A stretch of 64,000 nucleotides of DNA from Escherichia coli (GCF_024223415.1 NZ_CP100500.1); one strand, 5' to 3'. Counted from the first letter of the stretch, positions 17,294 to 43,824 are shown. A program made the numbers and translations. The notes: generated from the letters alone by a model not told the origin.

Positions 17294-17321
17294 TGCCGCC
17301 GATGGCGGCATTGCTTTTTTT
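17294..17321 (+). terminator. Rho-independent terminator of ydfZ
   Basis: TGCCGCC-gat-GGCGGCA stem followed by TTGCTTTTTTT. Confidence 0.55.
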
Positions 17322-18780: not shown

Positions 18781-18868
18781 AACAATTCCTTAAATATAAA
18801 TATGGCAAGCTACATGTTTTGTTATATGAAGAAAAATCCCCTCTCCGGTAAGAGAAGGGATTGAGGAT

Positions 18869-25247: not shown

Positions 25248-25311
25248 ATTCACCCCACAAAAAAGCCCGCCTGAACCGGCGGGCTGTCATAACACTGTGT
25301 TACCTGGCTAA

Positions 25312-25911: not shown

Positions 25912-25981
25912 AATTACCTCTCGCTTTTCTGCAATAAAAAAGGCGTCATTCCTGACGCCATTTATTGGGGTTATAAATATT

Positions 25982-28900: not shown

Positions 28901-29395
28901 GGCCAGATACTGCGAGGTGGTTTTGCCCTTAATGGTGATGTCTTTTTCCGTTAACCAGCGACCGTTACGCTGTATCTGAACCAGCAGGCGGACTTCCGAC
29001 GGATTCCGGTCCCCCTTTGAGGTGGTTTCCACCAGTGCCTGCACACCGAAGGTCAGGCGCAGACGGTCGATGTTTGCCGACGTGATGGTCCGGGTAATCG
29101 GCGTGTCGTACTTCACTTCCGTACCCAGCACCGTCTCGGAGCCGGAGGATTCAAATCCCTCCGGCGGTGTCTGCTCCTGCTCACCTGCCCGGAAAACCAC
29201 CGTGACACCGGAGATATTGGTATTCCCCTCACTGTCCAGCACCGGCGTACTGTTCAGCAGCACACTTTTTAATCCGTCCACCGGACCTTCAACCGGCCCT
29301 TCACTGATGGCGTCTATCACGCTCAGCATCTGGGATGATTTCAGGTTGTCCTTCGCTTCGCGCGGGGTATGCCCCTTACTGCTGCCTTTACCCAT
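25982..29395 (-). CDS. J: Tail tip host-specificity protein J, 1137 aa
   Basis: N-terminus [20 protein letters not shown] as in lambda gpJ; length and position. Confidence 0.95.
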
Positions 29396-29455
29396 TCCTC
29401 ACGCTCCAGAAACGACAAAACCGCCCTGAGGCGGTTTCACATAAAACGTTTTTCA

Positions 29456-30103
29456 TCAACGACCAATCACCACAACCTGACCACCGTCCCCCTCGTCTGC
29501 CGTGCTGATCTCCTGAGAAGCCACCCGCGACCCCACGCGCATTTCACCGTACAGAACCGGCAGAACATTGCCCTGAGCAACCATGTTATCCAGTGAGGAG
29601 AAATAGGTGTTCTGTTTGCCGTTATCTGTACTGGCTGCCGTGGGCGTCCTGGCTTTCGGTGCCAGCATCTGCGCCACACCGCCCAGGATCATACTGGCCC
29701 CTGCCGCATACATGCCCGATACAGCCGCGGCACCCAGCCAGCCCACAGGGTTCCACCATGCCACCGCAATCAACGCCGCCCCCAGCACCACCTGAAATAC
29801 ACCGCCACTTTTAGCCCCCGCCAGACGCGGCACGATATGGATCACGGCACCATTTGCCAGCGGCTCATTAAGACGGGCAGATAATTCGGTTTCACCTGCA
29901 TCACGCCCGGCAATGCGCACCTGATACCAGCCATCATTCAGTTTCTGACGAAACGCCGGGACCTGTGTGGACAGCGCCCGGATGGCTTCAGCCCCCGTTT
30001 TCACACGAAGGTCGATGCGGCGGCCAAATCGTTGTAAATCCCCGTAAAGGCAGATGCGTGCCATGCCCGGTGACGCCAGAGGGAGTGTGTGCGTCGCTGC
30101 CAT
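29456..30103 (-). CDS. I: Tail assembly protein I, 215 aa
   Basis: MAATHTLPLASPGMARICLYGDLQRFG as in lambda gpI. Confidence 0.9.
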   Translation of the reverse strand: MAATHTLPLASPGMARICLYGDLQRFGRRIDLRVKTGAEAIRALSTQVPAFRQKLNDGWYQVRIAGRDAGETELSARLNEPLANGAVIHIVPRLAGAKSGGVFQVVLGAALIAVAWWNPVGWLGAAAVSGMYAAGASMILGGVAQMLAPKARTPTAASTDNGKQNTYFSSLDNMVAQGNVLPVLYGEMRVGSRVASQEISTADEGDGGQVVVIGR

Positions 30104-30744
30104 TTGTCGGTATACCTCTCTCGTTTACTCAGTTGTTCAGGAATATGGTGCAGCAGCTCGCCGTCACCACAGTAAATAGCGGCATGATTCGGCACCGATG
30201 AACCAAAACAGCACAGCAGCACATCGCCCGGCTGCGCCGCTGACAACGGCACCTGATATAGCCCCGTTGCCTCCAGATTATCCAGATAGAGATTCTGACC
30301 GTGACGCCACCAGTCATCCTCACGATGAAAATCCGGCATCTCAATCCCCGCCAGATGGTAAGCATCCCGGAACAGCGTGTAACAGTCCGTCACCCCGTGC
30401 TCAAAGCGCCGCCCGGTGAGATGCGGCACACAGCGGAATTTATGAATCTCACCCCGGCAGACCAGCCACCACGGCAAATCACTCTGCACCTGCAGCCGCC
30501 GGTCGGCCTCACTCAGCCAGGGCAGACCACCGGGGTGGCTGTGGACCAGCGCCACAATCTCACCCTGCATCTCTGCCCGCAGCCAGTCCTCCGGCGACAT
30601 CCGGAAATACGCCTCCGGCTCACCGGAGATATTCACGCAGGGAAAATATCTTTCCCCCTCCGGTGTTCTCACCACGAAGCCGCACGACTCCGCTGGCGCA
30701 CATCGCCGGGCGTGCGCCAGAATCGCTGATTCTGTCTGTGTCAT
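30001..30744 (-). CDS. K: Tail assembly protein K (MPN/JAB plus NlpC/P60 domains), 247 aa
   Basis: Start at MTQTESAILAHARRCAPAESCGF; HSHPGG JAMM-like motif. Confidence 0.9.
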   Translation of the reverse strand: MTQTESAILAHARRCAPAESCGFVVRTPEGERYFPCVNISGEPEAYFRMSPEDWLRAEMQGEIVALVHSHPGGLPWLSEADRRLQVQSDLPWWLVCRGEIHKFRCVPHLTGRRFEHGVTDCYTLFRDAYHLAGIEMPDFHREDDWWRHGQNLYLDNLEATGLYQVPLSAAQPGDVLLCCFGSSVPNHAAIYCGDGELLHHIPEQLSKRERYTDKWQRRTHSLWRHRAWHASAFTGIYNDLAAASTFV

Positions 30745-30748
30745 GGGA

Positions 30749-31447
30749 TTACTGCGAAAGTTTGTTAATGGAAAGGAAGCCGCCAAAGTTGCCGACGTTA
30801 TTGCGAAACTTACAACCACTCAGGCATTTGCTGCATTTATCCTTCGTGATATCGGACGTCGGCTGGTCATATTCATCAGCGACAGCCGGACCGCTATAAC
30901 CGCACTCATCACCGCGATAGGTCCAGGTGCAGGTGTTGGCCAGCATGATGCGCCCCGGAAAAACAGCACCATCCGTTTCCGTCGGTGTGGAGAGCACAAA
31001 GGAGGCACTGACCGCACTCAGTTCGCTGCACTGCTCGATGCGCCAGCGGCTGATCACCTCCTGCTCCGGATCGGCGTCACTGTTTCCGTTGACGAAGTTC
31101 ACCGCATCCAGAAAACGGGCGTAAACCTTACGCCGGACCACCGTTCCTCCGACCAGACTCTGCAGGTCTTCCGCCATCCCGGTGACCATGCCGTGCAGGT
31201 TAGAAACCGTCAGTGTCGGACGGGCAGCACTGCCTTTGCCGTTCAGTTCAAATCCCGTCCCCTGAATGGGATACGCCTGATACTGTCGCCTCTGCCAGGT
31301 GACCGGCTCACCTTTATCGTTCTGCTCATTACAGAAAAAATAACGTTCTCCACCGACCACTGTCAGATCGATTTCCCAGAGCACCACCTGGGCTGACTGA
31401 GTGAGGCGTGTCGTCTCATGATGTGTTTCCTGTGGAATATCCTGCAT
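30749..31447 (-). CDS. L: Minor tail protein L, 232 aa
   Basis: Lambda gpL-like sequence and length. Confidence 0.9.
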   Translation of the reverse strand: MQDIPQETHHETTRLTQSAQVVLWEIDLTVVGGERYFFCNEQNDKGEPVTWQRRQYQAYPIQGTGFELNGKGSAARPTLTVSNLHGMVTGMAEDLQSLVGGTVVRRKVYARFLDAVNFVNGNSDADPEQEVISRWRIEQCSELSAVSASFVLSTPTETDGAVFPGRIMLANTCTWTYRGDECGYSGPAVADEYDQPTSDITKDKCSKCLSGCKFRNNVGNFGGFLSINKLSQ

Positions 31448-31456
31448 CAGAGACTC

Positions 31457-31786
31457 CTATGCCACGACCTGTTCAAAATCTGCCGTTATGGTTACCCACA
31501 ACGCCCCCACGCTTGCCGACCATTTACGACAAACCACCCTGATCGGCTTCCAGTCATAAGGTGGCGTCCACTGAAATGCGCGGACGCCACCGTGCCGTTC
31601 CAGAAAGGCTTTTAAAGATGGGTGTTCACATTTACGAACACGTATCGTCACGCTGTAAATCGACAACTGGTTATTCAGTCCCGCCGCACGACGCTGTTCA
31701 TAACCATCGCCCAGCTTCACTGTCACCACTTTCGGCTCTGATACCACATTCATATCCGGGCGCACTTTCCAGTGAAACGTCTCCAT
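31457..31786 (-). CDS. M: Minor tail protein M, 109 aa
   Basis: Lambda gpM-like sequence and length. Confidence 0.9.
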   Translation of the reverse strand: METFHWKVRPDMNVVSEPKVVTVKLGDGYEQRRAAGLNNQLSIYSVTIRVRKCEHPSLKAFLERHGGVRAFQWTPPYDWKPIRVVCRKWSASVGALWVTITADFEQVVA

Positions 31787-34700
31787 TACCGATATGCTCC
31801 ACTTAACCGACCACCATCACGGGCCTGCTGTTGCATAAAGTCCGCTGCCGCTTTTTTCCCAAGGTCATAAACCACCTTCAGGGCAGCCGGACCTATCTGC
31901 CCGTTCGTGCCATCGTTATTGATCTCGATGTTGTACTGCGGGGCAAACATCGCCATACCTGAACCACCAATATCCGCCACAACCCCCAGCTTACCGTCAG
32001 CACCACGACGCAGTGGCAGAATGGCTTCAGGTCCAGCTTCCCCCATCACACCCGCGCCTTTTGCAAAAGCAAAAAACGTCGGACGGTTAACCACCGTGCC
32101 ACTGTAACGACTCAAATCAGCAGACTGATAAATCCCCCCATTGGCATTCAGGGAAAGGCTGCTGAGATCAAATCCCAGTACACTGCCAATCCCTTTTATC
32201 GATTTCATCATGGTTGCCTGCGCCAGGATTTTCGCCATATCTGACAGCACCGAAGAGGTGAAGGATTTGAAGTTGAGTTTGCCGGTAGTGACAAAAGTTG
32301 CCAGGCCATTTCCCATGTTGCTGAAGGCTGATGAGAACACCTGTTCTGCTGTTCCTGCCGTATTGTCTGCATCCACGGTAAAATCCTGAAATGCACGCAG
32401 GACTCCGTTTTTCCAGTTACCCTGCACAACTTCAAGCTGTTGCCAGTAACGGCGATTCTCATTCAGTTGTCGGTTCAGGCTCTCCGTCAGCGCCTGCTCG
32501 GCCTTTCTGTAGTCATCCGTGTTATATGTCCCTTTCTGCTCACTATCCCGCCTCAACTGCTCCAGCTGTTGCTGGTATTTCTGGCGAAGACTCAGTTGTA
32601 CCTGATATCGCTGCCGCTGCTGATCACCCATACCCACCGTGGCGATATCCAGGTCATGTTGCTGACGCTGAGCGCGCTCTTCTTCAGCCAGTTGACTGGT
32701 CAGCTGAATTGTTTTTTTCTTCAGATCGTTGAGTGCCGTTTGTTTCTGAAGCTCCTGCTGTTTTACATCCAGCAGCGTCAGTGCCTGAATCAGTTCATCT
32801 TTACGGGCCAGCACACTCTTTTCATCTGCCGTCAGTTTTTTCCCGTCCAGGTCGCTGATGCGCTGCTGCAGAGCCAGAAGCTGTTTATGCGCTTCTGTCA
32901 TCCTGTCAGTGGCAATGCCTGCTGACTGTCTGGCAGCAGCAATCTGCCCTTCCACCTGTGCCTGTTGCTGGCTGTACTGCAGCAATAACCGGGTGGCCTC
33001 ATCATTACGGGTTTCGCGTGTTTTTTTCTTACCGGATGCCAGGGCTTTCTCGTAACGTTCATTTTCACGTTGTATCGCCGCATCCCTGACAGCCTGATCG
33101 GCGTACTGCATGGCATTAATACGCGCAATTTCACGCTGATGTCGTGCTGCTTCCGTTTCATTCATCCGGTTCAGTGCAGCATTTTCAGCATTACGGCGTT
33201 TCTGTTGCTCCTGATAATTCCGCTCTGCCTGCTCTTTTGCATCCTGCAAATCCTTCTGGCGTTTTTTCTCCTGAAGCTCGTTAAGACGCTGCTGATCGTA
33301 TTCAACCTGAGAAGATGATGCCGTCCAGGGGAGTCTTTTCGCCCGCGATACTTTCTCCTGCAAAGTGGCAATCTGCGCATCCAGCGAATCTTCACGACCA
33401 ATATTCATGGCCGCATCCCAGAACTGCTTCCACCAGTCAGACAAGGTTTGCAGCGTACTACCCAGCGCATTGAGGTTATTATCAATATCCGCAGTACGCC
33501 GACCGGTTTCCTCTGCCAGTGCAGACATGGCTATCCGTGCCGCATCACTGGAGCGCCCCTGCTCTCCAAGGACGCGTATCTGCTCAAGCTGAGTGGCAGT
33601 AAGAAAATGCAGCTCATTGTCCAGAGCCTTCGCGGCATTTACAGGATCATCCTTCAGCCGCTTAAACTGATTTATGGTATCGCTGATCGACTGGCCAACC
33701 GATCGCTCCATCTGTGCGGCAGCTCTCGCCACCATACCGATATCGTTTCCACGAAATGCACCACTCCCCACCACCTGAGCCAGCGCACCGGCTGCAGCAT
33801 GTTGCGTGATACCATTCCCGGAAATAGCACGACTGAGCGTCCACAGCTGCCCGGCAGTGACTCCGGCATAATGCCCCGTCAGCGACAGCTGGCGGTTAAA
33901 TTCTTCCCCCTCCTTCTGACCGTCATACCAGGCTTTACCCAGACCATAGACGGCCGCGGTAATACCGCCAATAACCCCGCCCAGCATCATGCCTTTCGGT
34001 GACATCAGTGTGTCTATCCATCCGGCACGGTTAGCCAGCGTTATCCCGGATCCCCTCAGCGCCCCTAAATTGCCGCGGGCCAGTTCACCTATCAGAACGC
34101 CTATCTCCTGGCGGGCCGCTGCACTTTTCAGACCCAGCGAATGCGTGGCTTTTCCTGCCCGCTCCATTTTGCGGATATACACTTCTGCAGCACTGCTTAC
34201 CCCCAGCTGGGCAGCCCTGGCACGAAGCAACTCAGAAGAAGAAAGATTCTGGCGGGTTGCCTGCTCTTTAAGCTGACGGATAAACGCCACTTTCTGTCGG
34301 GTAGCCTCTGCCTCAGCCTGCGTAAGAACACGGGTTTTCGCCGTAACCTCAGAAATCAGCGCCAGATAATCCTGCTGACCAATCCCGCCACTGTTTCTGG
34401 CCTGTCGGATCTGCTGCTGAATACGCTGTAACTCCTGCAACCCCGCACTGGCCTGTTTCACACTGTCAATCTGACGATAAAACGCGGCAGCCGCTTTATC
34501 CTGAGCCTCCGCCAGAGCCATGGCCTGCGCCTGTTCCTCGCGCATTTTCTGGCTCAGCGCCTCCATGCGCTGGCGGGTTTTCTCCACCTCGCGGGCCATG
34601 CGTTCATGAGCCTGTGCGTTCTTCTCCACCGTCTGCGCATGGACGGATGCGGCTGTTGCAGCCGAAGAAGCCGCCTGCGTTGTCTGCCGGGCGGCCTGAG

Positions 34701-34851
34701 TCTGACGCTCCATAAAACGCTGCATACGGGCAGAAGACCGTTCTGCATCGCTGGCTGCACCATTCAGAAGGTTTTTGATACGGGGAATTTCATTTTTAAA
34801 TTCTGCCGCATCAATCCCCAAATCAATGACCAGGTTGGCTATCTGGTCCAT
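31786..34851 (-). CDS. H: Tail tape-measure protein H, about 1021 aa
   Basis: Start at MDQIANLVIDLGIDAAEF with GGAGGTG SD; long coiled-coil-rich ORF; conserved C-terminal NNDGTNGQIGPAALK. Confidence 0.9.
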   Translation of the reverse strand: MDQIANLVIDLGIDAAEFKNEIPRIKNLLNGAASDAERSSARMQRFMERQTQAARQTTQAASSAATAASVHAQTVEKNAQAHERMAREVEKTRQRMEALSQKMREEQAQAMALAEAQDKAAAAFYRQIDSVKQASAGLQELQRIQQQIRQARNSGGIGQQDYLALISEVTAKTRVLTQAEAEATRQKVAFIRQLKEQATRQNLSSSELLRARAAQLGVSSAAEVYIRKMERAGKATHSLGLKSAAARQEIGVLIGELARGNLGALRGSGITLANRAGWIDTLMSPKGMMLGGVIGGITAAVYGLGKAWYDGQKEGEEFNRQLSLTGHYAGVTAGQLWTLSRAISGNGITQHAAAGALAQVVGSGAFRGNDIGMVARAAAQMERSVGQSISDTINQFKRLKDDPVNAAKALDNELHFLTATQLEQIRVLGEQGRSSDAARIAMSALAEETGRRTADIDNNLNALGSTLQTLSDWWKQFWDAAMNIGREDSLDAQIATLQEKVSRAKRLPWTASSSQVEYDQQRLNELQEKKRQKDLQDAKEQAERNYQEQQKRRNAENAALNRMNETEAARHQREIARINAMQYADQAVRDAAIQRENERYEKALASGKKKTRETRNDEATRLLLQYSQQQAQVEGQIAAARQSAGIATDRMTEAHKQLLALQQRISDLDGKKLTADEKSVLARKDELIQALTLLDVKQQELQKQTALNDLKKKTIQLTSQLAEEERAQRQQHDLDIATVGMGDQQRQRYQVQLSLRQKYQQQLEQLRRDSEQKGTYNTDDYRKAEQALTESLNRQLNENRRYWQQLEVVQGNWKNGVLRAFQDFTVDADNTAGTAEQVFSSAFSNMGNGLATFVTTGKLNFKSFTSSVLSDMAKILAQATMMKSIKGIGSVLGFDLSSLSLNANGGIYQSADLSRYSGTVVNRPTFFAFAKGAGVMGEAGPEAILPLRRGADGKLGVVADIGGSGMAMFAPQYNIEINNDGTNGQIGPAALKVVYDLGKKAAADFMQQQARDGGRLSGAYR

Positions 34852-35173
34852 AACGCACACCTCCGGAAATACCTTCCCCAAGATGCATCAGTTCTTCGTC
34901 CGTTCGCTCCGGTATCCCGTTCTCTTCCGGTAAAAGGCTGAAATCAGCCACCGCAGCATCACTGCTGCCGGACACCATTCTCACGATCAATGCCTTCAGC
35001 GAGGCAAACTGCGCATCCATCCACACATCACTGAAGCTCTGCATCCGGAAATAATCGCCCCACTCACCAAGCTCAGTGGCCGACATTTCCGACAGCATCC
35101 GCCGCCAGTCTGCCCGCCTGAACTCCCGGGCAAGCCGCATGACAAACTGCATTTCCCGCGTCAGGACTTTTCC
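34823..35173 (-). CDS. T: T segment of the tail assembly chaperone G-T fusion (expressed by -1 frameshift from G)
   Basis: ORF in the -1 frame relative to G, open across the end of G; position identical to lambda G/GT. Confidence 0.65.
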   Translation of the reverse strand, partial: GKVLTREMQFVMRLAREFRRADWRRMLSEMSATELGEWGDYFRMQSFSDVWMDAQFASLKALIVRMVSGSSDAAVADFSLLPEENGIPERTDEELMHLGEGISGGVRYGPDSQPGH

Positions 35174-35589
35174 GGCGTCAGCACCTCATGCTCCAAATCC
35201 CCGACATTCTCAATGGCTCCCATACCGCTCAGCGACAGAACCATCTCCGCCCCCGCTCCCAGGGCATCATACGACCATGTTGTAATAACGGATGCGCAAA
35301 GCGTCTCAACATCCTGAGACTGTTCCGCATTCCACAGTGAGCGGGAAACCAGCCAGGCATTGATATCCATCCCCATCCGTAGAAAAGCAATCTGTCGTTC
35401 AGCCTCCGGCAGTTCTCCCTCTTCGGCATCAAACTTTGCCGTTCGCTGCTGAACAAACGCCAGATATTCAATTCTCTGCAGCCCGGACAGCTCACTGAGC
35501 ACCACGGACTGCTTTTCATAATTAAACGTGCCCTGTTTCAGAAACATCATGTTCTCCACCTGCAAAAAAGCCCCGGATAATCGGGGCAA
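35161..35589 (-). CDS. G: Tail assembly chaperone G, 142 aa
   Basis: Position between V and T/H; size as lambda gpG. Confidence 0.8.
   Translation of the reverse strand: MPRLSGAFLQVENMMFLKQGTFNYEKQSVVLSELSGLQRIEYLAFVQQRTAKFDAEEGELPEAERQIAFLRMGMDINAWLVSRSLWNAEQSQDVETLCASVITTWSYDALGAGAEMVLSLSGMGAIENVGDLEHEVLTPEKS
35167..35173 (-). other. Candidate -1 programmed frameshift site GGAAAAG near the 3' end of G
   Basis: Minus strand reads ccG GAA AAG tcc tga in the G frame; lambda uses G GGA AAG at the equivalent position. Confidence 0.4.
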
Positions 35590-35607
35590 ATGATGAGTAT
35601 CGTCCTG

Positions 35608-36351
35608 TTAACCTGCGGCGCTGACGGCCACCGTAGCCACTGCCACAAAATCGCCGTCAGAAGTCATGCCCACAATGCTGACACTGCCCTGCTTCACGCC
35701 TTTCACCGTGACCACAAGCCCGTTCAGGGTCACCGTGGCAGTCTGTGGATCTGTCGAATGCACACTGATCGCTTTGTCACTGGCTCCGTCAGGTTTTACT
35801 GTAAAGGTCAGCGTGGTGGTTGCTCCCACTTTTACACTGGCAGATGCCGGTGCCACCGTCAGCCCGGTAACGCCCACGATTTCAGTGCCTTCTTCTGCCA
35901 GATACGGACGCCCCACACCGCTGATTTTCACTGTGCGGGTCATCACGTCTTTTGAGGCAATGGTTTTACCCAGTGAACTCAGCCAGCCACGGAAAACATC
36001 AACAGTACCGTTGGGATATTTGATACGAAACGCGCAGACTTCACCGGAGTCGAACAACTGAACCAGTTTTTTCTGCCCGCTGTCACCCGGACGCCAGGCC
36101 AGCGTCGCCGAAGTATCACCGACGGATTTCTGCCCCTGGGTTGTCGTTTTCCAGTCTGCATCTTCATCATCGAGATAAGTGTCATCTTCTGCATCAGCGG
36201 TCATTTCGCCAGGCTGCAGATCCTTCACCATCGCAAGACGCAGCCAGTCAGTGTCCGATAAAGGGTTCGCAAACGCATCGCCCTTGCCGGTGTACATCCA
36301 GAACGTCGTTCCCGCACCTTTCGTTTTTGCCAGTGGATTTGGTGTGGTCAT
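35608..36351 (-). CDS. V: Major tail protein V with C-terminal Ig-like domain, 247 aa
   Basis: Start at MTTPNPLAKTKGAGTT; lambda gpV-like throughout. Confidence 0.9.
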   Translation of the reverse strand: MTTPNPLAKTKGAGTTFWMYTGKGDAFANPLSDTDWLRLAMVKDLQPGEMTADAEDDTYLDDEDADWKTTTQGQKSVGDTSATLAWRPGDSGQKKLVQLFDSGEVCAFRIKYPNGTVDVFRGWLSSLGKTIASKDVMTRTVKISGVGRPYLAEEGTEIVGVTGLTVAPASASVKVGATTTLTFTVKPDGASDKAISVHSTDPQTATVTLNGLVVTVKGVKQGSVSIVGMTSDGDFVAVATVAVSAAG

Positions 36352-36361
36352 TGCCACCTCC

Positions 36362-36763
36362 TTAATTCGTGTACGTGATCTGGTACGTGATTTCCGCCAT
36401 CGCCCAGGTGGCCATCTCATTATCACGTTGATAGTTAAAACCGAGTGGGATCAGGGTGTCGATGAGTCCGGAAAGTGCCGGTACATCATTCAGGGCCGGG
36501 AAAATGGTGCTCTCCATCCACATATCCAGCTCTGAATCCGGTGCCTGTGCCCGGATGAAGACGGCAATATGCAGAACAGCCTGCCAGTCATCTTCATCCG
36601 TCATTTTTCCGGTGTACTGAGCATCACTCAGCCACACCGCCACGGCAGGCAGTTCCTGCGCATCAATAAATGCCGGAAGCCCGTCAAAAAATGTGGCGCT
36701 GTCTCCACACTGTTCCCGAAGGCGTGCCAGTACGGCCTGGCGGATTTGTGTATGTCGGTTCAT
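36362..36763 (-). CDS. U: Tail terminator protein U, about 133 aa
   Basis: Lambda gpU-like (ATFFDG, PAVAV, PDSELD-WMES motifs); start ATG overlaps the Z stop (ATGA). Confidence 0.85.
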   Translation of the reverse strand: MNRHTQIRQAVLARLREQCGDSATFFDGLPAFIDAQELPAVAVWLSDAQYTGKMTDEDDWQAVLHIAVFIRAQAPDSELDMWMESTIFPALNDVPALSGLIDTLIPLGFNYQRDNEMATWAMAEITYQITYTN

Positions 36764-37338
36764 CGGGTCAGCCATAACCTCAGTTGTTGTTTCAGTGCAT
36801 ACCCCAGCTGTTTCGGCATTTCCGCAGCAATGATGCGCTCGCGGGCATCTTCAAATGCCTGTGTCAGCGGTCCGGACAGCGGGATTTTCACCACATCAAT
36901 GGGGTAACGATTTTTGCCATCAATACGCCGCATCACATGCCAGCGACCATTCGCCAGTTGCTGAATAAACGCATCCCGGAAAAGATATTTACCCACCTTC
37001 AGCACGCTGCCACGGTACTGCAGTTTTCCACCACGCCGGGCCAGTCTGACCCGGGCTGTCCCCAGCTTAATGGCGGGCAGATTGCCCCGGTTAACGCGGA
37101 TCCTGGCCGTCATTTTTCCTGACGGACTGGCTTTAAACACCCGGACACGCTGACGTACCAGTTTCAGGGGGATCCCTTTCACCTGGTTATCTCCCGCAAC
37201 GGTATTCCCGGCAACCTGCCGGGTGGCAACCGAGACCGCTTTCTGTGCCACACGGTTTATCGCCCATGCGCTGGCCTGTGGCACCATACGGGTATCAAGG
37301 CTGTTCAGATTGCGGATGGCATTCTCAAGCCCCTTCAT
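36760..37338 (-). CDS. Z: Tail completion protein Z, 192 aa
   Basis: Length and position as lambda gpZ. Confidence 0.85.
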   Translation of the reverse strand: MKGLENAIRNLNSLDTRMVPQASAWAINRVAQKAVSVATRQVAGNTVAGDNQVKGIPLKLVRQRVRVFKASPSGKMTARIRVNRGNLPAIKLGTARVRLARRGGKLQYRGSVLKVGKYLFRDAFIQQLANGRWHVMRRIDGKNRYPIDVVKIPLSGPLTQAFEDARERIIAAEMPKQLGYALKQQLRLWLTR

Positions 37339-37349
37339 CCCACACCTCT

Positions 37350-37625
37350 TTACTCAATAAAGATCATTGGCTTACCGTTAAAGCGTTCATGCCGTGTGAC
37401 CGTCCATTGTTGTCCGTCATAAACAACGCGATCCCCGCGCCGTGGGCGGTATCCCGAAGAAAACACCACCAGAGAGACCGCAGGTCCGGACAGAGCATTC
37501 AGCTCTGCCAGTGTTTCTCCCGGGATCACGGTCATATCGACATCATTAATCGAGGCTGTCTTTCCCATCTTTCTGACCGTGATAGCATCCATACGCGCTG
37601 CCAGCCGGGAAAAGGGATCAGACAT
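37350..37625 (-). CDS. Head-tail attachment protein (gpFII-like), 91 aa
   Basis: C-terminal RRGDRVVYDGQQWTV resembles the lambda FII RRGDTLTIGEENFWV region; position before Z. Confidence 0.65.
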   Translation of the reverse strand: MSDPFSRLAARMDAITVRKMGKTASINDVDMTVIPGETLAELNALSGPAVSLVVFSSGYRPRRGDRVVYDGQQWTVTRHERFNGKPMIFIE

Positions 37626-37941
37626 TGAGTTTTACCGGCACTTCTTCTGCACTGGTTCCGGCATCTGCCCAGACAACCCCGACCAGCGGATCAGAGCCGC
37701 TGTTAGTCAGCTGAACTTTTCCGGACTTCAGATAAACCTTCTTACCCGTTTTCATGTCATCCGTTTTCAGCTTAGGCAGCATAAACACACCTTCGGTCAT
37801 ACCGTCGCCTGTTTCACCCTGTGGAATATCGGTCAGCGCCACCGCAAAAACATCACCCACCTGCACCAGATCTCCGCTGCTGATGGCTGCACTGGCAACA
37901 ATCGCCACCGTTTTTCCTTCTTCTACAAAATTCTTTGCCAT
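37618..37941 (-). CDS. Hypothetical head protein (FI/decoration position), about 107 aa
   Basis: Start at MAKNFVEEGKTVAIV with GGAGA SD; lies between the capsid gene and the FII-like gene. Confidence 0.45.
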   Translation of the reverse strand: MAKNFVEEGKTVAIVASAAISSGDLVQVGDVFAVALTDIPQGETGDGMTEGVFMLPKLKTDDMKTGKKVYLKSGKVQLTNSGSDPLVGVVWADAGTSAEEVPVKLNV

Positions 37942-38027
37942 AACTGTCTCCACACAGCCCCGTTCAGGGGCTGATTTCAGGTACAAAAAAAGCCCTTACG
38001 GGCCATCAGAGTTGTTGTCTGCGATGT

Positions 38028-39986
38028 TTACGCCGTACATTTCACCAGACCGCGGTGATCAACTGGCGCGACACCGGCGTCAATACGCACTTTCGTTGTC
38101 ACGCCATCCACACTGAAGCCCTCCATCTGATCAATATATGGCGTATCCACACCGTTGAGATAAGCCACTTCAATCGTATCGGAGCCTTTTGACGCAGCCA
38201 GGTAGAAGGTGGTCTGGCTGTTATCATCAAGACGAGGCTCTGCAATAACGGTCGCAAAATCTTTCACCGGGTTAATAATACCGGCGTTAATGTCAGCCCC
38301 CTTGACACTTGAGGAGCGAATGACCTGGTTAGCAACAGACTCCATCGCCGTCGGTACCAGTACGAACGCAGGACGAATATTCAGATGACGCTCCCCCTCT
38401 TTCTGAACACGCATCAACTGGCGGGCTTTATCCAGCGATGCCACGTCCATTGCAGCGTCCTCCAGTACGTTTGCATGTTTCGCTTTATCGAACAGACTTA
38501 CATTATCTGTGGAGATTTTCGGGTTAGACGTCAGAATGGCATAAACCAGATCGGCAATAGTGGATTTCGCCGCACGGCCCAGCTTCATCGGGACATCGGT
38601 CAGCATATTCAGATCATCATTGATAATGGCCTGACGGGTGATACTGAACAGCTCGCCATAGGTCGCCAGTGCAATAGTGGCCTGTTTATCTCCGGTGGTG
38701 ACGTATTTATATTCCGCCCCTTCACGCACCTGACGCAGAGCACTGAAGCCCCCTATACCCACGCGATGGGCAATTTTAAAATCAGACAACTGACCTTTCC
38801 GCGTCCACTGTTCATAGGTTTCAGGGGCATCTTCCCAGCCCTGCAGAATGGCTTTGTTCGCAACATCCAGCAGAATATTACCGAAGTCAGACGTACTGTG
38901 TGTGAACGCCGCACCGACCATCTGCATCGGGTTATAACCGGAAACCCCAATACCCCGTTCAGTCAGTGACATACGGGCATATTCACGCAGGGTCATCCCG
39001 TTGTAGACATTATCACGTTCGGTTTTTTCAAATCCGGCACGCGCCATCAGCGCCTGGCGGATCCCGTCCCCCACAAAATTACCGTTACCGGCATAAATAT
39101 GAGCCGGGGTATTTTTATTGGATGGCGTGGACTCGCGCCCCATCTCGTTCAACAGCTTTTCGCGGGCCTGCTCCAGCGAACATTCAGGATCGGCAAGACA
39201 CTGAGCCTGCAGCGTCTGATAACGCCCGCCAAACATGGCAAACAGATCATTAATACCGTTTACACGCGCTTTTTGCTCTGCCAGTACCTGCGCACGGATA
39301 CTGTTTTCATCCACCACGGGTGCTGCTGCCTGCACTGGCGTCCGGGAGGCTGCAGGTTCATTATCCTGTACGCGTGGAGCACTGTTGCGTGGCGGAGTAA
39401 TCATGTTTCGAATGGATTCCGGCATCTTTTTAAATTCCTCTGTACGTTTTGACTGAATACATGCCATTGCCTTAACGGCTGGCGTCACCTGATCAGCAAA
39501 TCCATGTGCCAGACATTCGGCACCGGACATCCAGGTCTCATCCGCCAGCATGGCAGCAATTTCATCGGTGGTTTTCCCGGTTTTCTGTGCATAAGCGGGT
39601 AACAGAACCGCCTCAACCTTATCGAGCAGGTCGGCATAGGTGCGCATGTCCTCCGCATCACCGCCCGTAAAGCCAAATGGTTTATGAATCATCATGAAGG
39701 TGTTTTCCGGCATAATGACCGGTTTTCCCACCATCGCAATGACCGACGCCATTGACGCCGCCACACCGTCGACATAAACGGTAATGGACGCACCATGTGT
39801 TTTCAGCGCATTAAAAATGGCGATGCCTTCAAAGACATCGCCACCCGGTGAATTGATATGGAGATTAATGTGGGTGATATCGCCCAGTGCATTCAGATCA
39901 CTGATAAACTGCTTCGCTGTAACACCCCAGAAACCAATCTCGTCATAAATATAAATATCCGCGTCACTCTGGTGACCAGCCTGCAT
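38028..39986 (-). CDS. Fused prohead protease (ClpP/S49-like) - scaffold - HK97-fold major capsid protein, about 652 aa
   Basis: N-terminal ClpP-like region (IYIYDEIGFWG...INSPGGDVFEG...MMIHKP), central Ala/Gln-rich linker, C-terminal capsid-like region; start chosen at MQAGHQS just inside the portal 3' end. Confidence 0.75.
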   Translation of the reverse strand: MQAGHQSDADIYIYDEIGFWGVTAKQFISDLNALGDITHINLHINSPGGDVFEGIAIFNALKTHGASITVYVDGVAASMASVIAMVGKPVIMPENTFMMIHKPFGFTGGDAEDMRTYADLLDKVEAVLLPAYAQKTGKTTDEIAAMLADETWMSGAECLAHGFADQVTPAVKAMACIQSKRTEEFKKMPESIRNMITPPRNSAPRVQDNEPAASRTPVQAAAPVVDENSIRAQVLAEQKARVNGINDLFAMFGGRYQTLQAQCLADPECSLEQAREKLLNEMGRESTPSNKNTPAHIYAGNGNFVGDGIRQALMARAGFEKTERDNVYNGMTLREYARMSLTERGIGVSGYNPMQMVGAAFTHSTSDFGNILLDVANKAILQGWEDAPETYEQWTRKGQLSDFKIAHRVGIGGFSALRQVREGAEYKYVTTGDKQATIALATYGELFSITRQAIINDDLNMLTDVPMKLGRAAKSTIADLVYAILTSNPKISTDNVSLFDKAKHANVLEDAAMDVASLDKARQLMRVQKEGERHLNIRPAFVLVPTAMESVANQVIRSSSVKGADINAGIINPVKDFATVIAEPRLDDNSQTTFYLAASKGSDTIEVAYLNGVDTPYIDQMEGFSVDGVTTKVRIDAGVAPVDHRGLVKCTA

Positions 39987-39999
39987 CCTGAACCAGGAA

Positions 40000-41508
40000 T
40001 TATTCTTCGGACTGGTCGTCGGTGTGCTGCGGCTCCTGTCGTTTCGTTGCGGCACTGCTGCCTCCTTTATCACTGGCCGGATCGGTATCAAATACCAGAT
40101 CCAGCTTGCGGTTTTCATCAATTTCGGCCTTGCGCCGACGTTTGACATCATCCGGATTACGACCACCTGCACGTACCCAGTCTGATTCTGTCGCCGCTCC
40201 ACCACGAATCTGGATTTTCCAGGCCTCAGCCTCCTTAACAGGGTCAATCCACGGCATCACCGGTCCGGAATACACCGCGGTATACAGTGAAGAACGGTCA
40301 AGATCGCGGGGTAGCCTGATAACACCGGATGCCACAGCCTGTTTCAGCCAGGCACGGTACATCGGGCGGGTGACGGCACCAATAAACCAGTCCTGCAGGA
40401 TCAGGTAGCCATCAGTGGATTCAACCAGCTCCTGACGCTGGGCGCTGTAAGTGCCGTTATAGTTGCGCGCTGTACTGGAAAAACTCAGACGACTGCCAGC
40501 CGCCACTGCACGCAACTGACCATTACGAAAAGTTTCAAGATTAGGATTGGGGCGATCCGACTTCACCATTCCGATTTCTTCGCCGGGTTTCAGATCGTCG
40601 TAAATAATGCCTGGCTGAATGGTAAGCTCGCGTTCCTTATCCTTGCTGCCATTACCATCCGGTTCATAGCTCTGCCCGTCGCCTTTGCGGATGTACATCC
40701 CCAGAGCAGCGGCGATCCTTGCTGCAGTCAGCTCATAATCTTCATAATCTTTCAGGGCACTGAGGCGGATCAGCACACCGGACAACAAAGACGTCCCGCG
40801 CATCTGGTGCAGACGGCGAACAAATTTAAGATGCAGCATTCGCTCTGCATCCACTTCTTTGGTTTCCATCTGCCGTCCGGATACGGGACGGCTTTTATAC
40901 ACCAGATATTTTTCGGGACGCCCCCAGTCATCAACAAACACGCCCTGATTCAGCCTGTTGCTCTCATCACTGGTCATGGGAATAAAGTCCGGCTCGAGCG
41001 CCTCCAGCCAGAAATGAACACCGGCAGAAGGCGTCAGGCTGTTTATGCGCCCGGAAACCATCTGGGCAAACACCTCACCATCGCGCAGCCAGGTACGCAG
41101 CATCAGACGTTCCAGTATCGGACGGGTAAACTGCCCGGTGACTTCCGGGCTGACAGACCATTCACTCCATCGGGTGCGAATCTCCGCTGCCAGATCACGG
41201 GCAATGGCCCCATTGCGTAATACCGGATGTGGCTCGACAATAATCCCGTTTTTCCCCACCACCCGTTCTTCCCGCTTGTCAAATACACCAATAACCAGAT
41301 CGTGGTTGTTATCAAGGTAACGGGCCTGCTCACGTAACGACACGGCCCCGTACTGGCTTAGCTGGTCGGCAGTTCGGTTCTCCCGTCGGGCTTTGTGTGT
41401 CCGCGTCGTTTTTACGGCTTCATAAGCCTGGATCACCGCACGGGAACGCAGCCTTGCCGCTTTCCATCCAGGTGAAAAAACGCCAATCACATCATCAAGA
41501 ATTGCCAT
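40000..41508 (-). CDS. Portal protein (lambda gpB family), about 502 aa
   Basis: Start at MAILDDVIGVFSPGW, coupled to the W-like stop (ATGA overlap); length and position. Confidence 0.9.
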   Translation of the reverse strand: MAILDDVIGVFSPGWKAARLRSRAVIQAYEAVKTTRTHKARRENRTADQLSQYGAVSLREQARYLDNNHDLVIGVFDKREERVVGKNGIIVEPHPVLRNGAIARDLAAEIRTRWSEWSVSPEVTGQFTRPILERLMLRTWLRDGEVFAQMVSGRINSLTPSAGVHFWLEALEPDFIPMTSDESNRLNQGVFVDDWGRPEKYLVYKSRPVSGRQMETKEVDAERMLHLKFVRRLHQMRGTSLLSGVLIRLSALKDYEDYELTAARIAAALGMYIRKGDGQSYEPDGNGSKDKERELTIQPGIIYDDLKPGEEIGMVKSDRPNPNLETFRNGQLRAVAAGSRLSFSSTARNYNGTYSAQRQELVESTDGYLILQDWFIGAVTRPMYRAWLKQAVASGVIRLPRDLDRSSLYTAVYSGPVMPWIDPVKEAEAWKIQIRGGAATESDWVRAGGRNPDDVKRRRKAEIDENRKLDLVFDTDPASDKGGSSAATKRQEPQHTDDQSEE

Positions 41509-41726
41509 CAGAACCTCGCCAGCCGGTACCCGGGATGCCCCCGTCGTCGTGTAATCAGAGCCGCAAGGCGGCGCTCCCACTCCTGCCGTCCCTGCCGGAT
41601 CTCAGATAAGTTTTCCATGGTCATCTGCTGACCATTAAAGGTGACGGATTTTCCGTCCAGCACCGCCATTTCAGCTTCCATATAACGCTGAATCATGGCT
41701 TCGATATCATTCTGGTTCATAACCAT
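41508..41726 (-). CDS. Head-tail joining protein (gpW-like), 72 aa
   Basis: Small ORF between terminase large subunit and portal, as lambda W. Confidence 0.65.
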   Translation of the reverse strand: MVMNQNDIEAMIQRYMEAEMAVLDGKSVTFNGQQMTMENLSEIRQGRQEWERRLAALITRRRGHPGYRLARF

Positions 41727-43816
41727 CCTCCGGAAGTCAGCCAGGGGTTAACATCGTCAGTTACTGTTTTCTTCCGTTTTTGTTTTTTAACAGGCGTGGA
41801 TACCGGTTCCGGTGAGGATGACGGTTCGGTACTGTCCTGGACACACTCCAGCCAGGTTTCCCGGCTCGCCCACTCCGGTGCATCCGGCCAGCGGATCTTT
41901 TCGTATCCATGCAGAATGACCAGAGCCTCGGCATACACCATCAGGTCAAAAGCTTCGTTGGCACCGCGACCCGGCTTACTCCATTTCCCGTCACTGCTCC
42001 GCTCTTCATACGTCAGTTCGTCGTAAAACCAGCTCCCCAGCCAGTCAGGGAAATGCACATAGCCGGGACCTGGCGAGTCACGCCATAACGCGTTATTCAC
42101 CCGGTCTTTCAGTGCATCCGTCTGAAGAAGCCAGAGCGGCACATCACCTGCGGCCTGCGCCCGGCGGCCCGTTCGTCCGGTGTTATCAGGGAATGTACGG
42201 CTGATCAGTTTTGCGCGCCGGATGCTGTCACCCTTAAACAGGTAAATACGTTTACCAAGGCCATCACGACGGCAACGACGCCAGAATTTATAGGCATTAT
42301 CAGTGACCCCGTCTTCACCGCCGGAGTCCACCGCCATTGCCATCAGTCGCATTTGTTGAGAAGGATCGGAGGCCAGCGGCCAGCTTTTATGAAAAACATC
42401 CGTCAGCAGGACATCCCAGTCTTCCGGATAGCTGGCCGGATCAATTCGCTGGCTCTCCCCGTCGCAGTCACTGCGCAATGACTGCGTGATGTTGTAACGA
42501 TCAATAATCCAGCGTTCGCCACGACTGCCATAGCCCGTTACCTGAACCACAAAACGGCGATGACGTCCCGCCTGCACATCCACTGTCGCCACAAGGAAAT
42601 TAACGCCATCCGGCACACTGCGGGAAGGAACTGGCTCTGCCCGCTGCTCAAGCAGTTCACTTTTTCGTTGCTCCATGCTGGCACGAGGAAGATAAGGCAA
42701 TCCCCAGTCGGTGTTGATAACCGCCCTGAGTGTTTCTTCGCTTCCTGTCGCTTCATACTCCTGTTCTGCAGTCAGTAATTTGTAAACCAGTTGCGCCCAG
42801 GTCTGATACGCAGCAGCTGGCCCTTCCATCCAGAAACTGGCGATACGGGAGCGGCGCGGTTCACCGGAAACGTTGCCGTTACGATCAATGACCTGACCTT
42901 CACGCAACCAGACTCCTGCACTATTGAGCTCACGCTTTTTCTCCGCAGTGATAATGCCGCTGCAGTGCGGGCAAAGTAGATACGCCGCCTCACTGGCTTT
43001 AAAGGGATCCGGTTCATTACGGTAGCCGGTCATGGCATCCATGGCTGGCTGAAAATATTCACCGCAGTGCGGACATGACCAGTACCAGCGGCGGCGGTCA
43101 CCACGATTGTAAAGGGAAAGAATACCAGTCGTCGGTGGCGCTTCATGAGGCGACTTACGTCGCCATTTGCTGTCGCAGATGTCACGTCCCGGCGAGCTCT
43201 CCACCAGAGTCATCCCGGCGGACATAAATGTGGTGGTACGTTTTGAGGCCAGGGAGAAACCATCACCCTCGCTGTCGATATTCTCCGGAAAACGGTCGTA
43301 ATCGGTTAAGGCGACAAACCGGTAATCCGACGACGACATAATGTTGACCGAGGGCCAACCAATTTTAAGGAACGAGCCATCCCTGAACGTCTTATCATGG
43401 ACATTATTGTCGTTACGACGTGGACTCATTCTTTTCTTTACCGCCGCACTGCTTCTGAACGTTCTGTCGAGGCGCTTTTTAGAATGCTCGCGGGCCTTAT
43501 CTTCGGTCATCTGCACAACGAGCATGTCCGAAGGATCGCAAACGATGGTATAGACAATCCATCCATCGATCAGACCAATGGTCTTCCCTGTTCGCGCAGG
43601 ACCAACAAAAATCACCGCATCGTATTCACGCGATGCCAGGCAGTTCATGGGCTCAATGATGTAGGGTGTCAGTTCAGGATCCCATGGCACCGAGTTACCA
43701 GCCCCCTTGGGAACACGCATGAATTTTTTAACAGCCTCCGAAATCGGCATGCGACGTGGTGGGGAAAATCCTGCCGATATGTCCCTTCCCAAATTTCGGG
43801 CTGATGAAAAACCCAT
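41717..43816 (-). CDS. Terminase large subunit (lambda gpA family), 699 aa
   Basis: Walker A-like VGPARTGKT; strong AGGAGG SD; followed by W and portal. Confidence 0.9.
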   Translation of the reverse strand: MGFSSARNLGRDISAGFSPPRRMPISEAVKKFMRVPKGAGNSVPWDPELTPYIIEPMNCLASREYDAVIFVGPARTGKTIGLIDGWIVYTIVCDPSDMLVVQMTEDKAREHSKKRLDRTFRSSAAVKKRMSPRRNDNNVHDKTFRDGSFLKIGWPSVNIMSSSDYRFVALTDYDRFPENIDSEGDGFSLASKRTTTFMSAGMTLVESSPGRDICDSKWRRKSPHEAPPTTGILSLYNRGDRRRWYWSCPHCGEYFQPAMDAMTGYRNEPDPFKASEAAYLLCPHCSGIITAEKKRELNSAGVWLREGQVIDRNGNVSGEPRRSRIASFWMEGPAAAYQTWAQLVYKLLTAEQEYEATGSEETLRAVINTDWGLPYLPRASMEQRKSELLEQRAEPVPSRSVPDGVNFLVATVDVQAGRHRRFVVQVTGYGSRGERWIIDRYNITQSLRSDCDGESQRIDPASYPEDWDVLLTDVFHKSWPLASDPSQQMRLMAMAVDSGGEDGVTDNAYKFWRRCRRDGLGKRIYLFKGDSIRRAKLISRTFPDNTGRTGRRAQAAGDVPLWLLQTDALKDRVNNALWRDSPGPGYVHFPDWLGSWFYDELTYEERSSDGKWSKPGRGANEAFDLMVYAEALVILHGYEKIRWPDAPEWASRETWLECVQDSTEPSSSPEPVSTPVKKQKRKKTVTDDVNPWLTSGGWL

Positions 43817-43824
43817 TATTCCTC

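What the first reader, a model, noticed from the sequence alone, without database searches (positions are those of the whole stretch)
38028..39986. Single ORF fusing a ClpP-like prohead protease to the major capsid protein
The N-terminal about 200 residues carry ClpP/S49-like serine protease motifs, followed by an Ala/Gln-rich linker and about 350 residues resembling an HK97-fold capsid protein. There is no separate scaffold or capsid gene. This means the head is of the protease-capsid fusion type while the tail and terminase are lambda-like, so the prophage is a mosaic.
Basis: inference. Interest (0 to 1): 0.4.

Follow-up and report, generated by a model that had tools for sequence, protein, structure and literature searches.

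The report
Known protease–scaffold–capsid fusion gene of prophage
This is a real but already well-known phage head gene: one protein carries a ClpP-type maturation protease, a scaffold-like middle part and the capsid shell protein, as in Salmonella phage Gifsy-2, and it occurs in about 40% of complete E. coli genomes.

Summary
The ORF is real, uninterrupted and on the minus strand (stop at 38028). It carries a ClpP-type (S14) protease domain, a central domain and an HK97-fold capsid domain. It scores 983 bits, full length, against NCBIfam NF045540 [quoted passage not shown] (cutoff 475). It is 98.9% identical to gp05 of isolated phage mEp460 and 70% identical over its full length to the "tripartite capsid gene" of Gifsy-2 (Effantin 2010). 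It is present in 2124 of 5426 complete E. coli genomes.

- **Start codon.** The start is most likely GTG 40055 (AAGGAGG-N5-GTG, 675 aa, overlapping the portal gene by 56 nt), not ATG 39986.
- **The "linker".** It consists of a 23-residue disordered Ala/Pro-rich segment followed by a conserved helical domain that resembles the lambda Nu3 scaffold weakly.
- **Terminase and portal.** These are lambda-family only (23–24% identity). They belong to one collinear Gifsy-2/mEp460-type head module. Only the tail, especially L-K-I-J and the fibres, is closely lambda-like.

No separate capsid or scaffold gene exists in the window. This is already known and of low interest.

The parts
38028..40055 (-). Fusion gene with its preferred start (GTG 40055, 675 aa plus stop 38030-38028). 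It encodes a ClpP-like prohead protease, a scaffold-like central domain and an HK97-fold major capsid protein.
   Evidence: ORF; NF045540 at 982.7 bits, full length; PHROG 133; PGAP annotates the same 2028-nt CDS in a 99.9%-identical genome.
39984..39986 (-). It is probably an internal Met24.
   Evidence: No Shine-Dalgarno sequence lies upstream. Gifsy-2 has Ile at this position. The conserved motif W(Y/F)xIxA begins upstream of it in 40 of 71 diverse homologues.
40061..40067 (-). Shine-Dalgarno sequence AAGGAGG, 5 nt before GTG 40055, inside the 3' end of the portal gene.
   Evidence: it is the best SD of any in-frame start. SD+GTG is conserved in phage 1720a-02 (77% nt identity), and a GGAGG-N5-ATG sits at an equivalent place in Pseudomonas phage MD8.
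39471..39995 (-). ClpP-type (S14) protease domain, residues 21-195 in 675-residue numbering. Catalytic Ser101 is at 39753-39755, His124 at 39684-39686, and the likely third residue Glu173 at 39537-39539.
   Evidence: Pfam CLP_protease E 4e-36; NF045542 at 215.6 bits against a cutoff of 120; alignment to solved ClpP structures; Ser and His invariant in 71/71, with Glu in 60 and Asp in 7 of 71 at the ClpP Asp position; Foldseek TM about 0.8; codons checked.
39318..39470 (-). Two short post-protease helices, then a disordered Ala/Pro-rich linker (residues 224-246).
   Evidence: AF2 pLDDT below 50 for residues 224-246. This is the lowest-conservation, most indel-rich part of the family alignment. 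Composition is A 26%, P 17%.
39129..39317 (-). Conserved three-helix central domain (residues 247-309), the presumed internal scaffold.
   Evidence: AF2 helices 250-273, 280-288 and 294-307 at pLDDT about 95; family consensus ExxRxxxI...CLxD...AxxxLLxxLG. hhalign to a lambda Nu3 family profile gives P 2e-4, probability 42-49%. The Nu3 profile's best hit among 780 window segments is this ORF, E 0.005.
38925..39128 (-). Disordered segment (residues 310-326) plus 2-3 helices (residues 327-377). This is either the end of the scaffold part or an extended capsid N-arm. The maturation cleavage site is probably somewhere in this stretch.
   Evidence: AF2 pLDDT below 50 at residues 316-324. The Pfam capsid model starts only at residue 378. 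The cleavage position itself is inferred, not shown.
38031..38924 (-). HK97-fold major capsid protein core (residues 378-675).
   Evidence: Pfam Phage_capsid_4 E 2e-54 and Mu-like_gpT E 4e-8. The AF2 C-terminal model has pLDDT 91.8. Foldseek hits to HK97, D3, LME-1 and phiXacJX1 capsids and to encapsulins, E about 1e-9.
37991..38004 (-). Rho-independent terminator-like hairpin (GGCCCGTAAGGGCT followed by a T-run) immediately after the stop codon.
   Evidence: The homologous site is annotated as a terminator in mEp460.
37618..37941 (-). Head decoration (cement) protein gene, a partner of the capsid.
   Evidence: Pfam Phage_cement_2 E 9e-21; PHROG 122 'head decoration' E 2e-47; 61% identical to the Gifsy-2 homologue.
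40000..41508 (-). Portal protein gene (lambda gpB family). Its last 56 nt overlap the fusion gene.
   Evidence: Pfam Phage_portal_2 E 2e-80; 64% identical to the Gifsy-2 portal and 23% to lambda gpB.
41717..44382 (-). Terminase large subunit (41717-43816, gpA family) and small subunit (43825-44382, DUF1441) of the same head module.
   Evidence: TerL is 72% identical to Gifsy-2 and 24% to lambda gpA.

Best explanation
The gene is the 'tripartite' head gene of a Gifsy-2/mEp460-type lambdoid prophage sitting at the E. coli Qin locus. One polypeptide carries three parts in order:
- an N-terminal ClpP-family (S14) serine protease;
- a flexible linker plus a helical, Nu3-like scaffolding domain;
- a C-terminal HK97-fold major capsid protein.

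The likely mechanism is as follows. These steps are inferred from Gifsy-2, HK97 and lambda and are not shown here.
1. The capsid domains co-assemble on the lambda-family portal into a T=7 procapsid, with the protease and scaffold parts facing inward.
2. Crowding inside the shell activates the Ser-His-Glu/Asp protease.
3. The protease cuts away itself and the scaffold part.
4. The gpA-type terminase packages DNA and the shell expands.
5. Trimers of the downstream cement protein lock the shell.

Translation most probably starts at GTG 40055, inside the end of the portal gene. The product is then 675 aa, not 652 aa.
For: - **Family membership.** NF045540 at 982.7 bits against a cutoff of 475, full length. 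Pfam CLP_protease and Phage_capsid_4. PHROG 133.
- **Near-identity to isolated phages.** 645 of 652 residues match phage mEp460 gp05. The gene is 99% nt-identical in phages cdtI, Ayreon, Tritos and phi458.
- **Relation to Gifsy-2.** 69.8% identity over the full length to Gifsy-2 STM1034.3n, with the same gene order: TerS, TerL, W-like, portal, fusion, cement, then head-tail genes.
[quoted passage not shown] Gifsy-2 has a trimeric cement protein at the 3-fold axes (PMC8538268). The same fusion was noted in 17 Paracoccus prophages (PMC6536676).
- **Catalytic residues.** Ser and His are invariant in 71 of 71 diverse homologues.
- **Structure.** AF2 pLDDT is 88.6 for the full model and 91.8 for the C-terminal model. 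The folds are ClpP and HK97.
- **Breadth of the architecture.** Both domains are present in 131 of the best 150 cluster representatives.
- **No competing gene.** No other capsid or scaffold candidate exists in the window, nor in annotated near-identical DNA.
- **Start codon.**
Against: - No experiment on this gene or strain is available. Processing, the cleavage site and the T number are taken from Gifsy-2 by homology. My recollection of that paper's abstract could not be checked because the paper is not in the library.
- The third catalytic residue is Glu rather than ClpP's Asp.
- The Nu3 similarity of the central domain is weak (probability 42-49%).
- The prophage carries an IS element in its early region. 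The gene may never be expressed in this strain.
Confidence: 0.93

Rival explanations
1. Two ordinary genes, protease and capsid, appear joined only because of a frameshift or sequencing error in this window.
For: Most phages with a ClpP-type head protease have it as a separate gene. Of 1660 phage records with a match, only 80 cover at least 80% of the query.
Against: - The frame is continuous here.
- It is also continuous in at least 1971 complete E. coli genomes, in isolated phages, in Gifsy-2 and MD8, and in 131 of 150 diverged cluster representatives.
- A curated full-length HMM exists for exactly this architecture.
Confidence: 0.01
2. The full-length fusion is a minor product. Most capsid subunits would be made from an internal in-frame start as a protease-less scaffold-capsid protein, in the way lambda Nu3 is nested in C. 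That would set a low protease:capsid ratio.
For: An in-frame ATG (Met211, window 39425-39423) lies just after the protease domain, with a weak AGGA/GAGG motif about 10 nt upstream. Lambda uses exactly this trick for C/Nu3. Proteins with only the central and capsid parts exist elsewhere (P0165, P0225).
Against: - The Met is not conserved. The column holds A, V, I, P, T or L in other family members.
- The SD is weak compared with the 7-nt SD at GTG 40055.
- No promoter-like site lies inside the gene.
Confidence: 0.08
3. It is not a virion gene but a cellular or encapsulin-like compartment protein with a tethered protease.
For: Foldseek's top hits for the C-terminal domain include many encapsulins.
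Against: - Encapsulins and phage capsids share the HK97 fold, so those hits do not discriminate.
- The gene sits between the portal and the cement and head-tail genes of a complete lambda-type structural operon.
- It is 98.9% identical to the corresponding gene of plaque-forming phage mEp460.
- Cellular ClpP equivalog models score far below their cutoffs, for example TIGR00493 at 61.6 against 308.6.
Confidence: 0.01

Closest known systems
Salmonella phage Gifsy-2 'tripartite capsid gene' (STM1034.3n, YP_001700678; Effantin et al. 2010, Virology 402:355)
   Same: The order is the same: ClpP-like protease, central domain, HK97-fold capsid. Identity is 69.8% over the full length. The neighbours match: DUF1441 TerS, gpA-type TerL, W-like adaptor, lambda-family portal upstream, and PF09956 cement protein plus a lambda-like tail downstream.
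   Different: About 30% sequence divergence and an E. coli host. Here the tail-tip genes L, K, I and J are 78-97% identical to lambda, against 63-77% to Gifsy-2. Gifsy-2 carries virulence cargo (sodC, gtgA, sseI) that is absent here.
Phages mEp460 (gp05), cdtI, Ayreon, Tritos, phi458
   Same: Essentially the same gene: 98.3-99.4% nt identity, with 645 of 652 aa matching mEp460. The whole structural arm is collinear at 95.9% nt identity.
   Different: Their GenBank records start the gene at the ATG (652 aa) and label it variously as protease, scaffold, 'Nu3' or capsid. The window copy is in a Qin-locus prophage with an IS insertion.
NCBIfam NF045540 (scaf_prot_MCP1) and sister family NF045541 (scaf_prot_MCP2)
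   Same: Full-length match above the cutoff to NF045540. The central and capsid parts (residues 199-649) also match NF045541 at 401 bits.
   Different: The NF045541 score is below that family's cutoff (525), and the N-terminal protease part is not matched. The gene is therefore not a member of the sister family.
Lambda gpC/Nu3 (S49 protease-scaffold nested genes) plus gpE and gpD
   Same: The protease is followed in the same frame by a scaffold region. hhalign of the family against gpC gives probability 89% and E 2e-6, collinear through the Nu3 part. Portal, terminase and cement-stabilised head follow the same logic.
   Different: In lambda the capsid protein gpE is a separate gene and shows no detectable similarity. 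The lambda protease is S49, not S14. The cement gene lies before the capsid gene, not after it.
HK97 gp4 protease and gp5 (delta-domain scaffold fused to capsid)
   Same: The scaffold function is covalently attached to an HK97-fold capsid protein and removed by a phage protease. The fold match is shown.
   Different: The HK97 protease is a separate gene of a different family. HK97 uses covalent chainmail instead of a cement protein. Crosslink residues were not examined here.

Membership tests
ClpP-like prohead protease/major capsid protein fusion (NCBIfam NF045540; Gifsy-2 type) | Full-length HMM match above the curated cutoff | tested here: met
   982.7 bits against a cutoff of 475, covering HMM positions 2-651 of 652.
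ClpP-like prohead protease/major capsid protein fusion (NCBIfam NF045540; Gifsy-2 type) | N-terminal ClpP-fold domain with catalytic Ser and His | tested here: met
   Pfam CLP_protease E 4e-36. The AASMAS Ser and MIHKP His align to the ClpP catalytic residues. Both are invariant in 71 of 71 homologues. Foldseek TM is about 0.8 to ClpP.
ClpP-like prohead protease/major capsid protein fusion (NCBIfam NF045540; Gifsy-2 type) | C-terminal HK97-fold capsid domain in the same frame | tested here: met
   Phage_capsid_4 E 2e-54. AF2 pLDDT is 91.8, with Foldseek hits to HK97-fold capsids at E 1e-9. The frame is continuous.
ClpP-like prohead protease/major capsid protein fusion (NCBIfam NF045540; Gifsy-2 type) | Position in a head module: after the portal, before the cement and head-tail genes, with no separate capsid or scaffold gene | tested here: met
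ClpP-like prohead protease/major capsid protein fusion (NCBIfam NF045540; Gifsy-2 type) | Autoproteolytic removal of protease and scaffold to give the mature capsid protein in a T=7 shell | not testable with these tools
   This needs virion protein analysis or cryo-EM. It is known only for Gifsy-2 (Effantin 2010, cited; the paper itself is not held).
Cellular ATP-dependent ClpP (peptidase S14, TIGR00493 and PRK equivalogs) | Score above the equivalog cutoffs, with a Ser-His-Asp triad | tested here: not met
   TIGR00493 scores 61.6 bits against a cutoff of 308.6, and all ClpP equivalogs fall far below their cutoffs. The position of the triad Asp holds Glu in 60 of 71 homologues. It has a ClpP fold but is not a cellular ClpP.
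Peptidase S49 (lambda gpC / SppA type) | Match to the S49 family model | tested here: not met
   No Pfam Peptidase_S49 hit. SppA_dom TIGR00706 scores 22 bits against a cutoff of 155. Only a remote profile similarity to gpC was found.
Lambda Nu3-type scaffold (central domain) | Detectable homology of the central domain to Nu3 | tested here: inconclusive
   hhalign of the central domain against a Nu3 family profile gives P 2e-4 and probability 42-49%. The Nu3 HMM's best hit in the window is this ORF, at E 0.005 and 11.9 bits.
HK97-type chainmail capsids | Lys/Asn/Glu crosslinking residues | not tested
   The presence of a cement protein gene suggests non-covalent stabilisation instead. This is an inference.

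The most novel reading that the evidence does not exclude
Two small points are not in the phage GenBank records.

(1) The protein starts 23 codons earlier than annotated in mEp460/cdtI-type phages, at an SD-preceded GTG inside the portal gene. The extra residues include a conserved Trp motif that forms a beta-strand of the protease fold.

(2) The central domain is a remote homologue of the lambda Nu3 scaffold. The gene would then be collinear with lambda C-Nu3 joined to a Mu-gpT-type capsid protein.
Probability: 0.4. Interest if true: 0.15.

Novelty: already known. Interest (0 to 1): 0.08.

Why it matters
It matters little for discovery. The architecture has been described experimentally (Gifsy-2, 2010), has its own curated NCBI family and is annotated in thousands of genomes.

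The practical value is in annotation:
- The gene should be called protease-scaffold-capsid, not 'Nu3', 'protease C' or 'Clp protease'.
- Its start is probably mis-set in several phage records.
- The Qin-locus prophage in this strain keeps a complete mEp460-type structural arm.

Such all-in-one head genes are of some interest for capsid engineering, and as single targets for capsid- or protease-sensing defence systems.

Tried and rejected
- **+ strand reading.** Translating the stated coordinates on the + strand gave only stops. The gene is on the minus strand.
- **Effantin 2010.** I tried to read the paper by PubMed id, but it is not held. Two literature searches for processing data on such fusions found nothing specific.
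- **Foldseek with the full-length model.** It returned only ClpP hits. A second model of the C-terminal part alone was needed.
- **Internal Nu3-like start at Met211.** The SD is weak and the Met is not conserved. It is kept only as a low-probability rival.
- **Similarity to lambda gpE or gpD.** None was found.
- **Central domain against a single Nu3 sequence.** Not significant (probability 4%). With a Nu3 family profile it rose to 42-49%, which is still inconclusive.
- **Maturation cleavage site.** It could not be located by computation.
- **CBASS preprint.** It concerns a different, scaffold-protease fusion and was not used.

Full report
**Observation.** The window has a continuous ORF on the minus strand from 40247 to the stop at 38030-38028. 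The + strand over the stated coordinates is full of stops.

**Family assignment.**
- Pfam finds CLP_protease at residues 23-168 (E 4e-36) and Phage_capsid_4 at 355-649 (E 2e-54), plus a weaker Mu-like gpT match.
- NCBIfam NF045540, 'ClpP-like prohead protease/major capsid protein fusion protein', matches end to end at 982.7 bits (cutoff 475). The domain model NF045542, 'head maturation protease, ClpP-related', matches at 215.6 bits (cutoff 120).
- PHROG 133 matches over the full length.
- Cellular ClpP equivalogs and the S49/SppA models score far below their cutoffs. The protease is therefore a phage ClpP-fold (S14-type) enzyme, not S49.

**How common it is.**
- The 1959-nt segment is found in 2124 of 5426 complete E. 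coli genomes, and 1971 of them cover at least 80% of it. PGAP names it exactly as above.
- It is 98.3-99.4% nt-identical in isolated phages mEp460, cdtI, Ayreon, Tritos and phi458. 645 of 652 residues match mEp460 gp05.
- An exhaustive HMMER search found 6678 cluster representatives at E<=1e-30. Of the best 150, 131 contain both the ClpP and capsid parts.
- Among phage records, 1660 share the protease but only 80 have the fused form.
- The fusion has been noted in the literature for Gifsy-2 (PMC12315714; PMC8538268) and for 17 Paracoccus prophages (PMC6536676).

**Context.**
- The gene order on the minus strand is: DUF1441 small terminase, gpA-family large terminase, W-like adaptor, lambda-family portal, the fusion gene, a terminator-like hairpin, PF09956 cement protein, a 'Gifsy-2' family head-tail protein, then lambda-type Z, U, V, G/T, H, M, L, K, I, J, Lom, Stf and Tfa.
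- This order is identical in Gifsy-2 and mEp460.
- Against Gifsy-2, the fusion protein is 69.8% identical over its full length. TerL is 72%, the portal 64% and the cement protein 61% identical.
- Against lambda, TerL is 24% and the portal 23% identical, with no match for TerS, the fusion or the cement protein. Z, U, V and M are about 50-55% identical. L, K, I, J and Tfa are 78-97% identical.
- At DNA level, window 26029-43720 is collinear with mEp460 at 95.9%. Lambda-like DNA (80-93%) is confined to 22184-31924.
- The head, portal and terminase genes therefore form one Gifsy-2/mEp460-type module. The lambda-like part is the distal tail. This is ordinary, inherited lambdoid mosaicism.
- The prophage lies at the Qin locus (ydfI/ydfJ on one side, rspB on the other) and carries relBE, hokD, dicB and csp genes.

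**No separate capsid or scaffold gene.**
- I built HMMs of the capsid, protease and central parts from the family alignment. I searched them, together with a lambda Nu3 family profile and the lambda C, Nu3, D and E proteins, against all 780 six-frame segments of at least 40 aa in the window.
- Only the fusion ORF is hit (capsid E 1.6e-145, protease 3.5e-76, central part 5.8e-25). Nothing resembles gpE or gpD.
- PGAP annotations of near-identical DNA list no capsid or scaffold gene either.

**Anatomy (675-residue numbering from GTG 40055).** AlphaFold2 on a 71-sequence alignment gives mean pLDDT 88.6.
- Residues 1-16 are disordered.
- Residues 21-195 form the ClpP domain, followed by two short helices to about residue 220.
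- Residues 224-246 are disordered. This stretch is Ala/Pro-rich and is the most variable, indel-rich part of the family.
- Residues 250-307 form three confident helices.
- Residues 316-324 are disordered.
- Helices at 327-339, 356-366 and 376-383 follow.
- The HK97-fold core comes last. It has an E-loop hairpin and a 29-residue spine helix at 482-510, and runs to residue 675.

Foldseek matches the N-terminal part to ClpP structures (TM about 0.8, E 1e-12). A separate C-terminal model (pLDDT 91.8) matches HK97, D3, LME-1 and other capsids, and encapsulins (E about 1e-9, 8-15% identity).

Ser101 and His124 are invariant in 71 of 71 homologues at 34-52% identity. The residue aligned with ClpP's catalytic Asp is Glu173 (Glu in 60 and Asp in 7 of 71).

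**Central domain.**
- The family profile aligns collinearly with lambda gpC residues 123-434, through the Nu3 scaffold part (probability 89%, E 2e-6). That score is driven mainly by the protease clan relationship.
- The central part alone against a single Nu3 sequence is not significant.
- Against a 23-sequence Nu3 family profile it reaches P 2e-4 and probability 42-49%.
- The Nu3 HMM's best hit in the whole window is this ORF (E 0.005).
- I treat Nu3 homology as suggestive only. The NCBIfam model name ('scaf_prot_MCP') points the same way. So does the ~200-residue central domain with a possible scaffolding role that I recall from the Gifsy-2 paper's abstract (from memory; the paper is not held).
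- The sister family NF045541 shares the central and capsid parts but not this protease. A few proteins have the central and capsid parts alone. This is consistent with the central domain being a capsid-attached scaffold like the HK97 delta domain.

**Start codon.**
- ATG 39986 has no Shine-Dalgarno sequence. GTG 40055 is preceded by AAGGAGG at 5 nt, the best SD of any in-frame start. No other start codon lies between the two.
- The conserved N-terminal motif (K/N)xW(Y/F)xIxA begins upstream of the ATG. The ATG's Met sits at the conserved Ile position, and Gifsy-2 has Ile there.
- AF2 places WFRMQ in a beta-strand of the protease fold at pLDDT about 90.
- SD+GTG is conserved in phage 1720a-02 (77% nt identity). 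Pseudomonas phage MD8 has GGAGG-N5-ATG 27 codons before the Trp.
- PGAP also uses the 675-aa form.
- The gene is therefore most likely 38028-40055 and overlaps the portal gene by 56 nt.

**Mechanism.**
- Shown: the domain content, the catalytic residues, the folds, the context and near-identity to functional phages.
- Inferred by homology to Gifsy-2, HK97 and lambda: co-assembly on the portal with the protease and scaffold parts inside, assembly-triggered autoproteolysis, expansion on packaging, and cement protein binding.
- Not determined here: the cleavage site. It probably lies between residues about 310 and 380.

**Rivals.**
- A frameshift artefact is excluded by the conservation of the single frame.
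- An internal Nu3-like start at Met211 has a weak, unconserved signal.
- An encapsulin-like, non-virion role is contradicted by the context.

**Verdict.** The finding is correct and its core interpretation is supported. The feature is already known, curated and very common. Interest is low.

Noticed in passing
window 40053-40067 (-): A perfect Shine-Dalgarno sequence (AAGGAGG-N5-GTG) lies inside the 3' end of the portal gene. It implies a 675-aa product and a 56-nt portal/fusion gene overlap. GenBank records of mEp460 and cdtI start 23 codons later.
   Followed up: yes
window 37991-38004 (-): A terminator-like hairpin with a T-run lies directly between the capsid fusion gene and the cement gene. 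The same site is annotated as a terminator in mEp460. It may lower expression of the downstream genes relative to the capsid gene.
   Followed up: partly
window 55569-56888 (-): A 439-aa transposase ORF (HTH plus rve_3 domains) sits in the early region of the prophage. The matching feature in strain KV7 is annotated as an ISEsa1-family (IS1202-like) transposase. The prophage may therefore be defective despite an intact structural arm.
   Followed up: partly
window about 20200-64000; flanks 17320-20152: The prophage occupies the Qin locus. ydfI (mannitol dehydrogenase family) and an MFS transporter lie on one side. Near-identical DNA in strain KV7 carries relBE, hokD, dicB, cspB/F/I, gnsB and rem. 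This looks like a near full-length relative of the K-12 Qin remnant.
   Followed up: partly
window 31450-31924 and 26426-31924: There is a sharp change in similarity to lambda within the tail operon. M and the genes upstream of it are about 50% aa-identical to lambda. L, K, I and J are 78-97% aa-identical (89.5% nt). This recombination junction is shared with mEp460.
   Followed up: partly
window 21486-22076 (+): An intact 196-aa serine recombinase (Resolvase plus HTH_7, Pin-like invertase) lies next to the tail fibre and tail fibre assembly genes (22174-25253). The homologue in strain 2013C-3264 is frameshifted. It may drive tail-fibre switching.
   Followed up: no
locus L003 1400-3055 (E. 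coli KV7): In strain KV7 the same fusion gene is truncated ('missing C-terminus') by a deletion that removes the tail genes up to the fibre. This shows how Qin-type remnants decay.
   Followed up: no
window 61447-63918 (+): An 823-aa ORF is annotated 'exonuclease' in relatives. Pfam matches only its C-terminal 170 residues (Rv2179c-like 3'-5' exoribonuclease domain). The first ~640 residues have no Pfam match.
   Followed up: no
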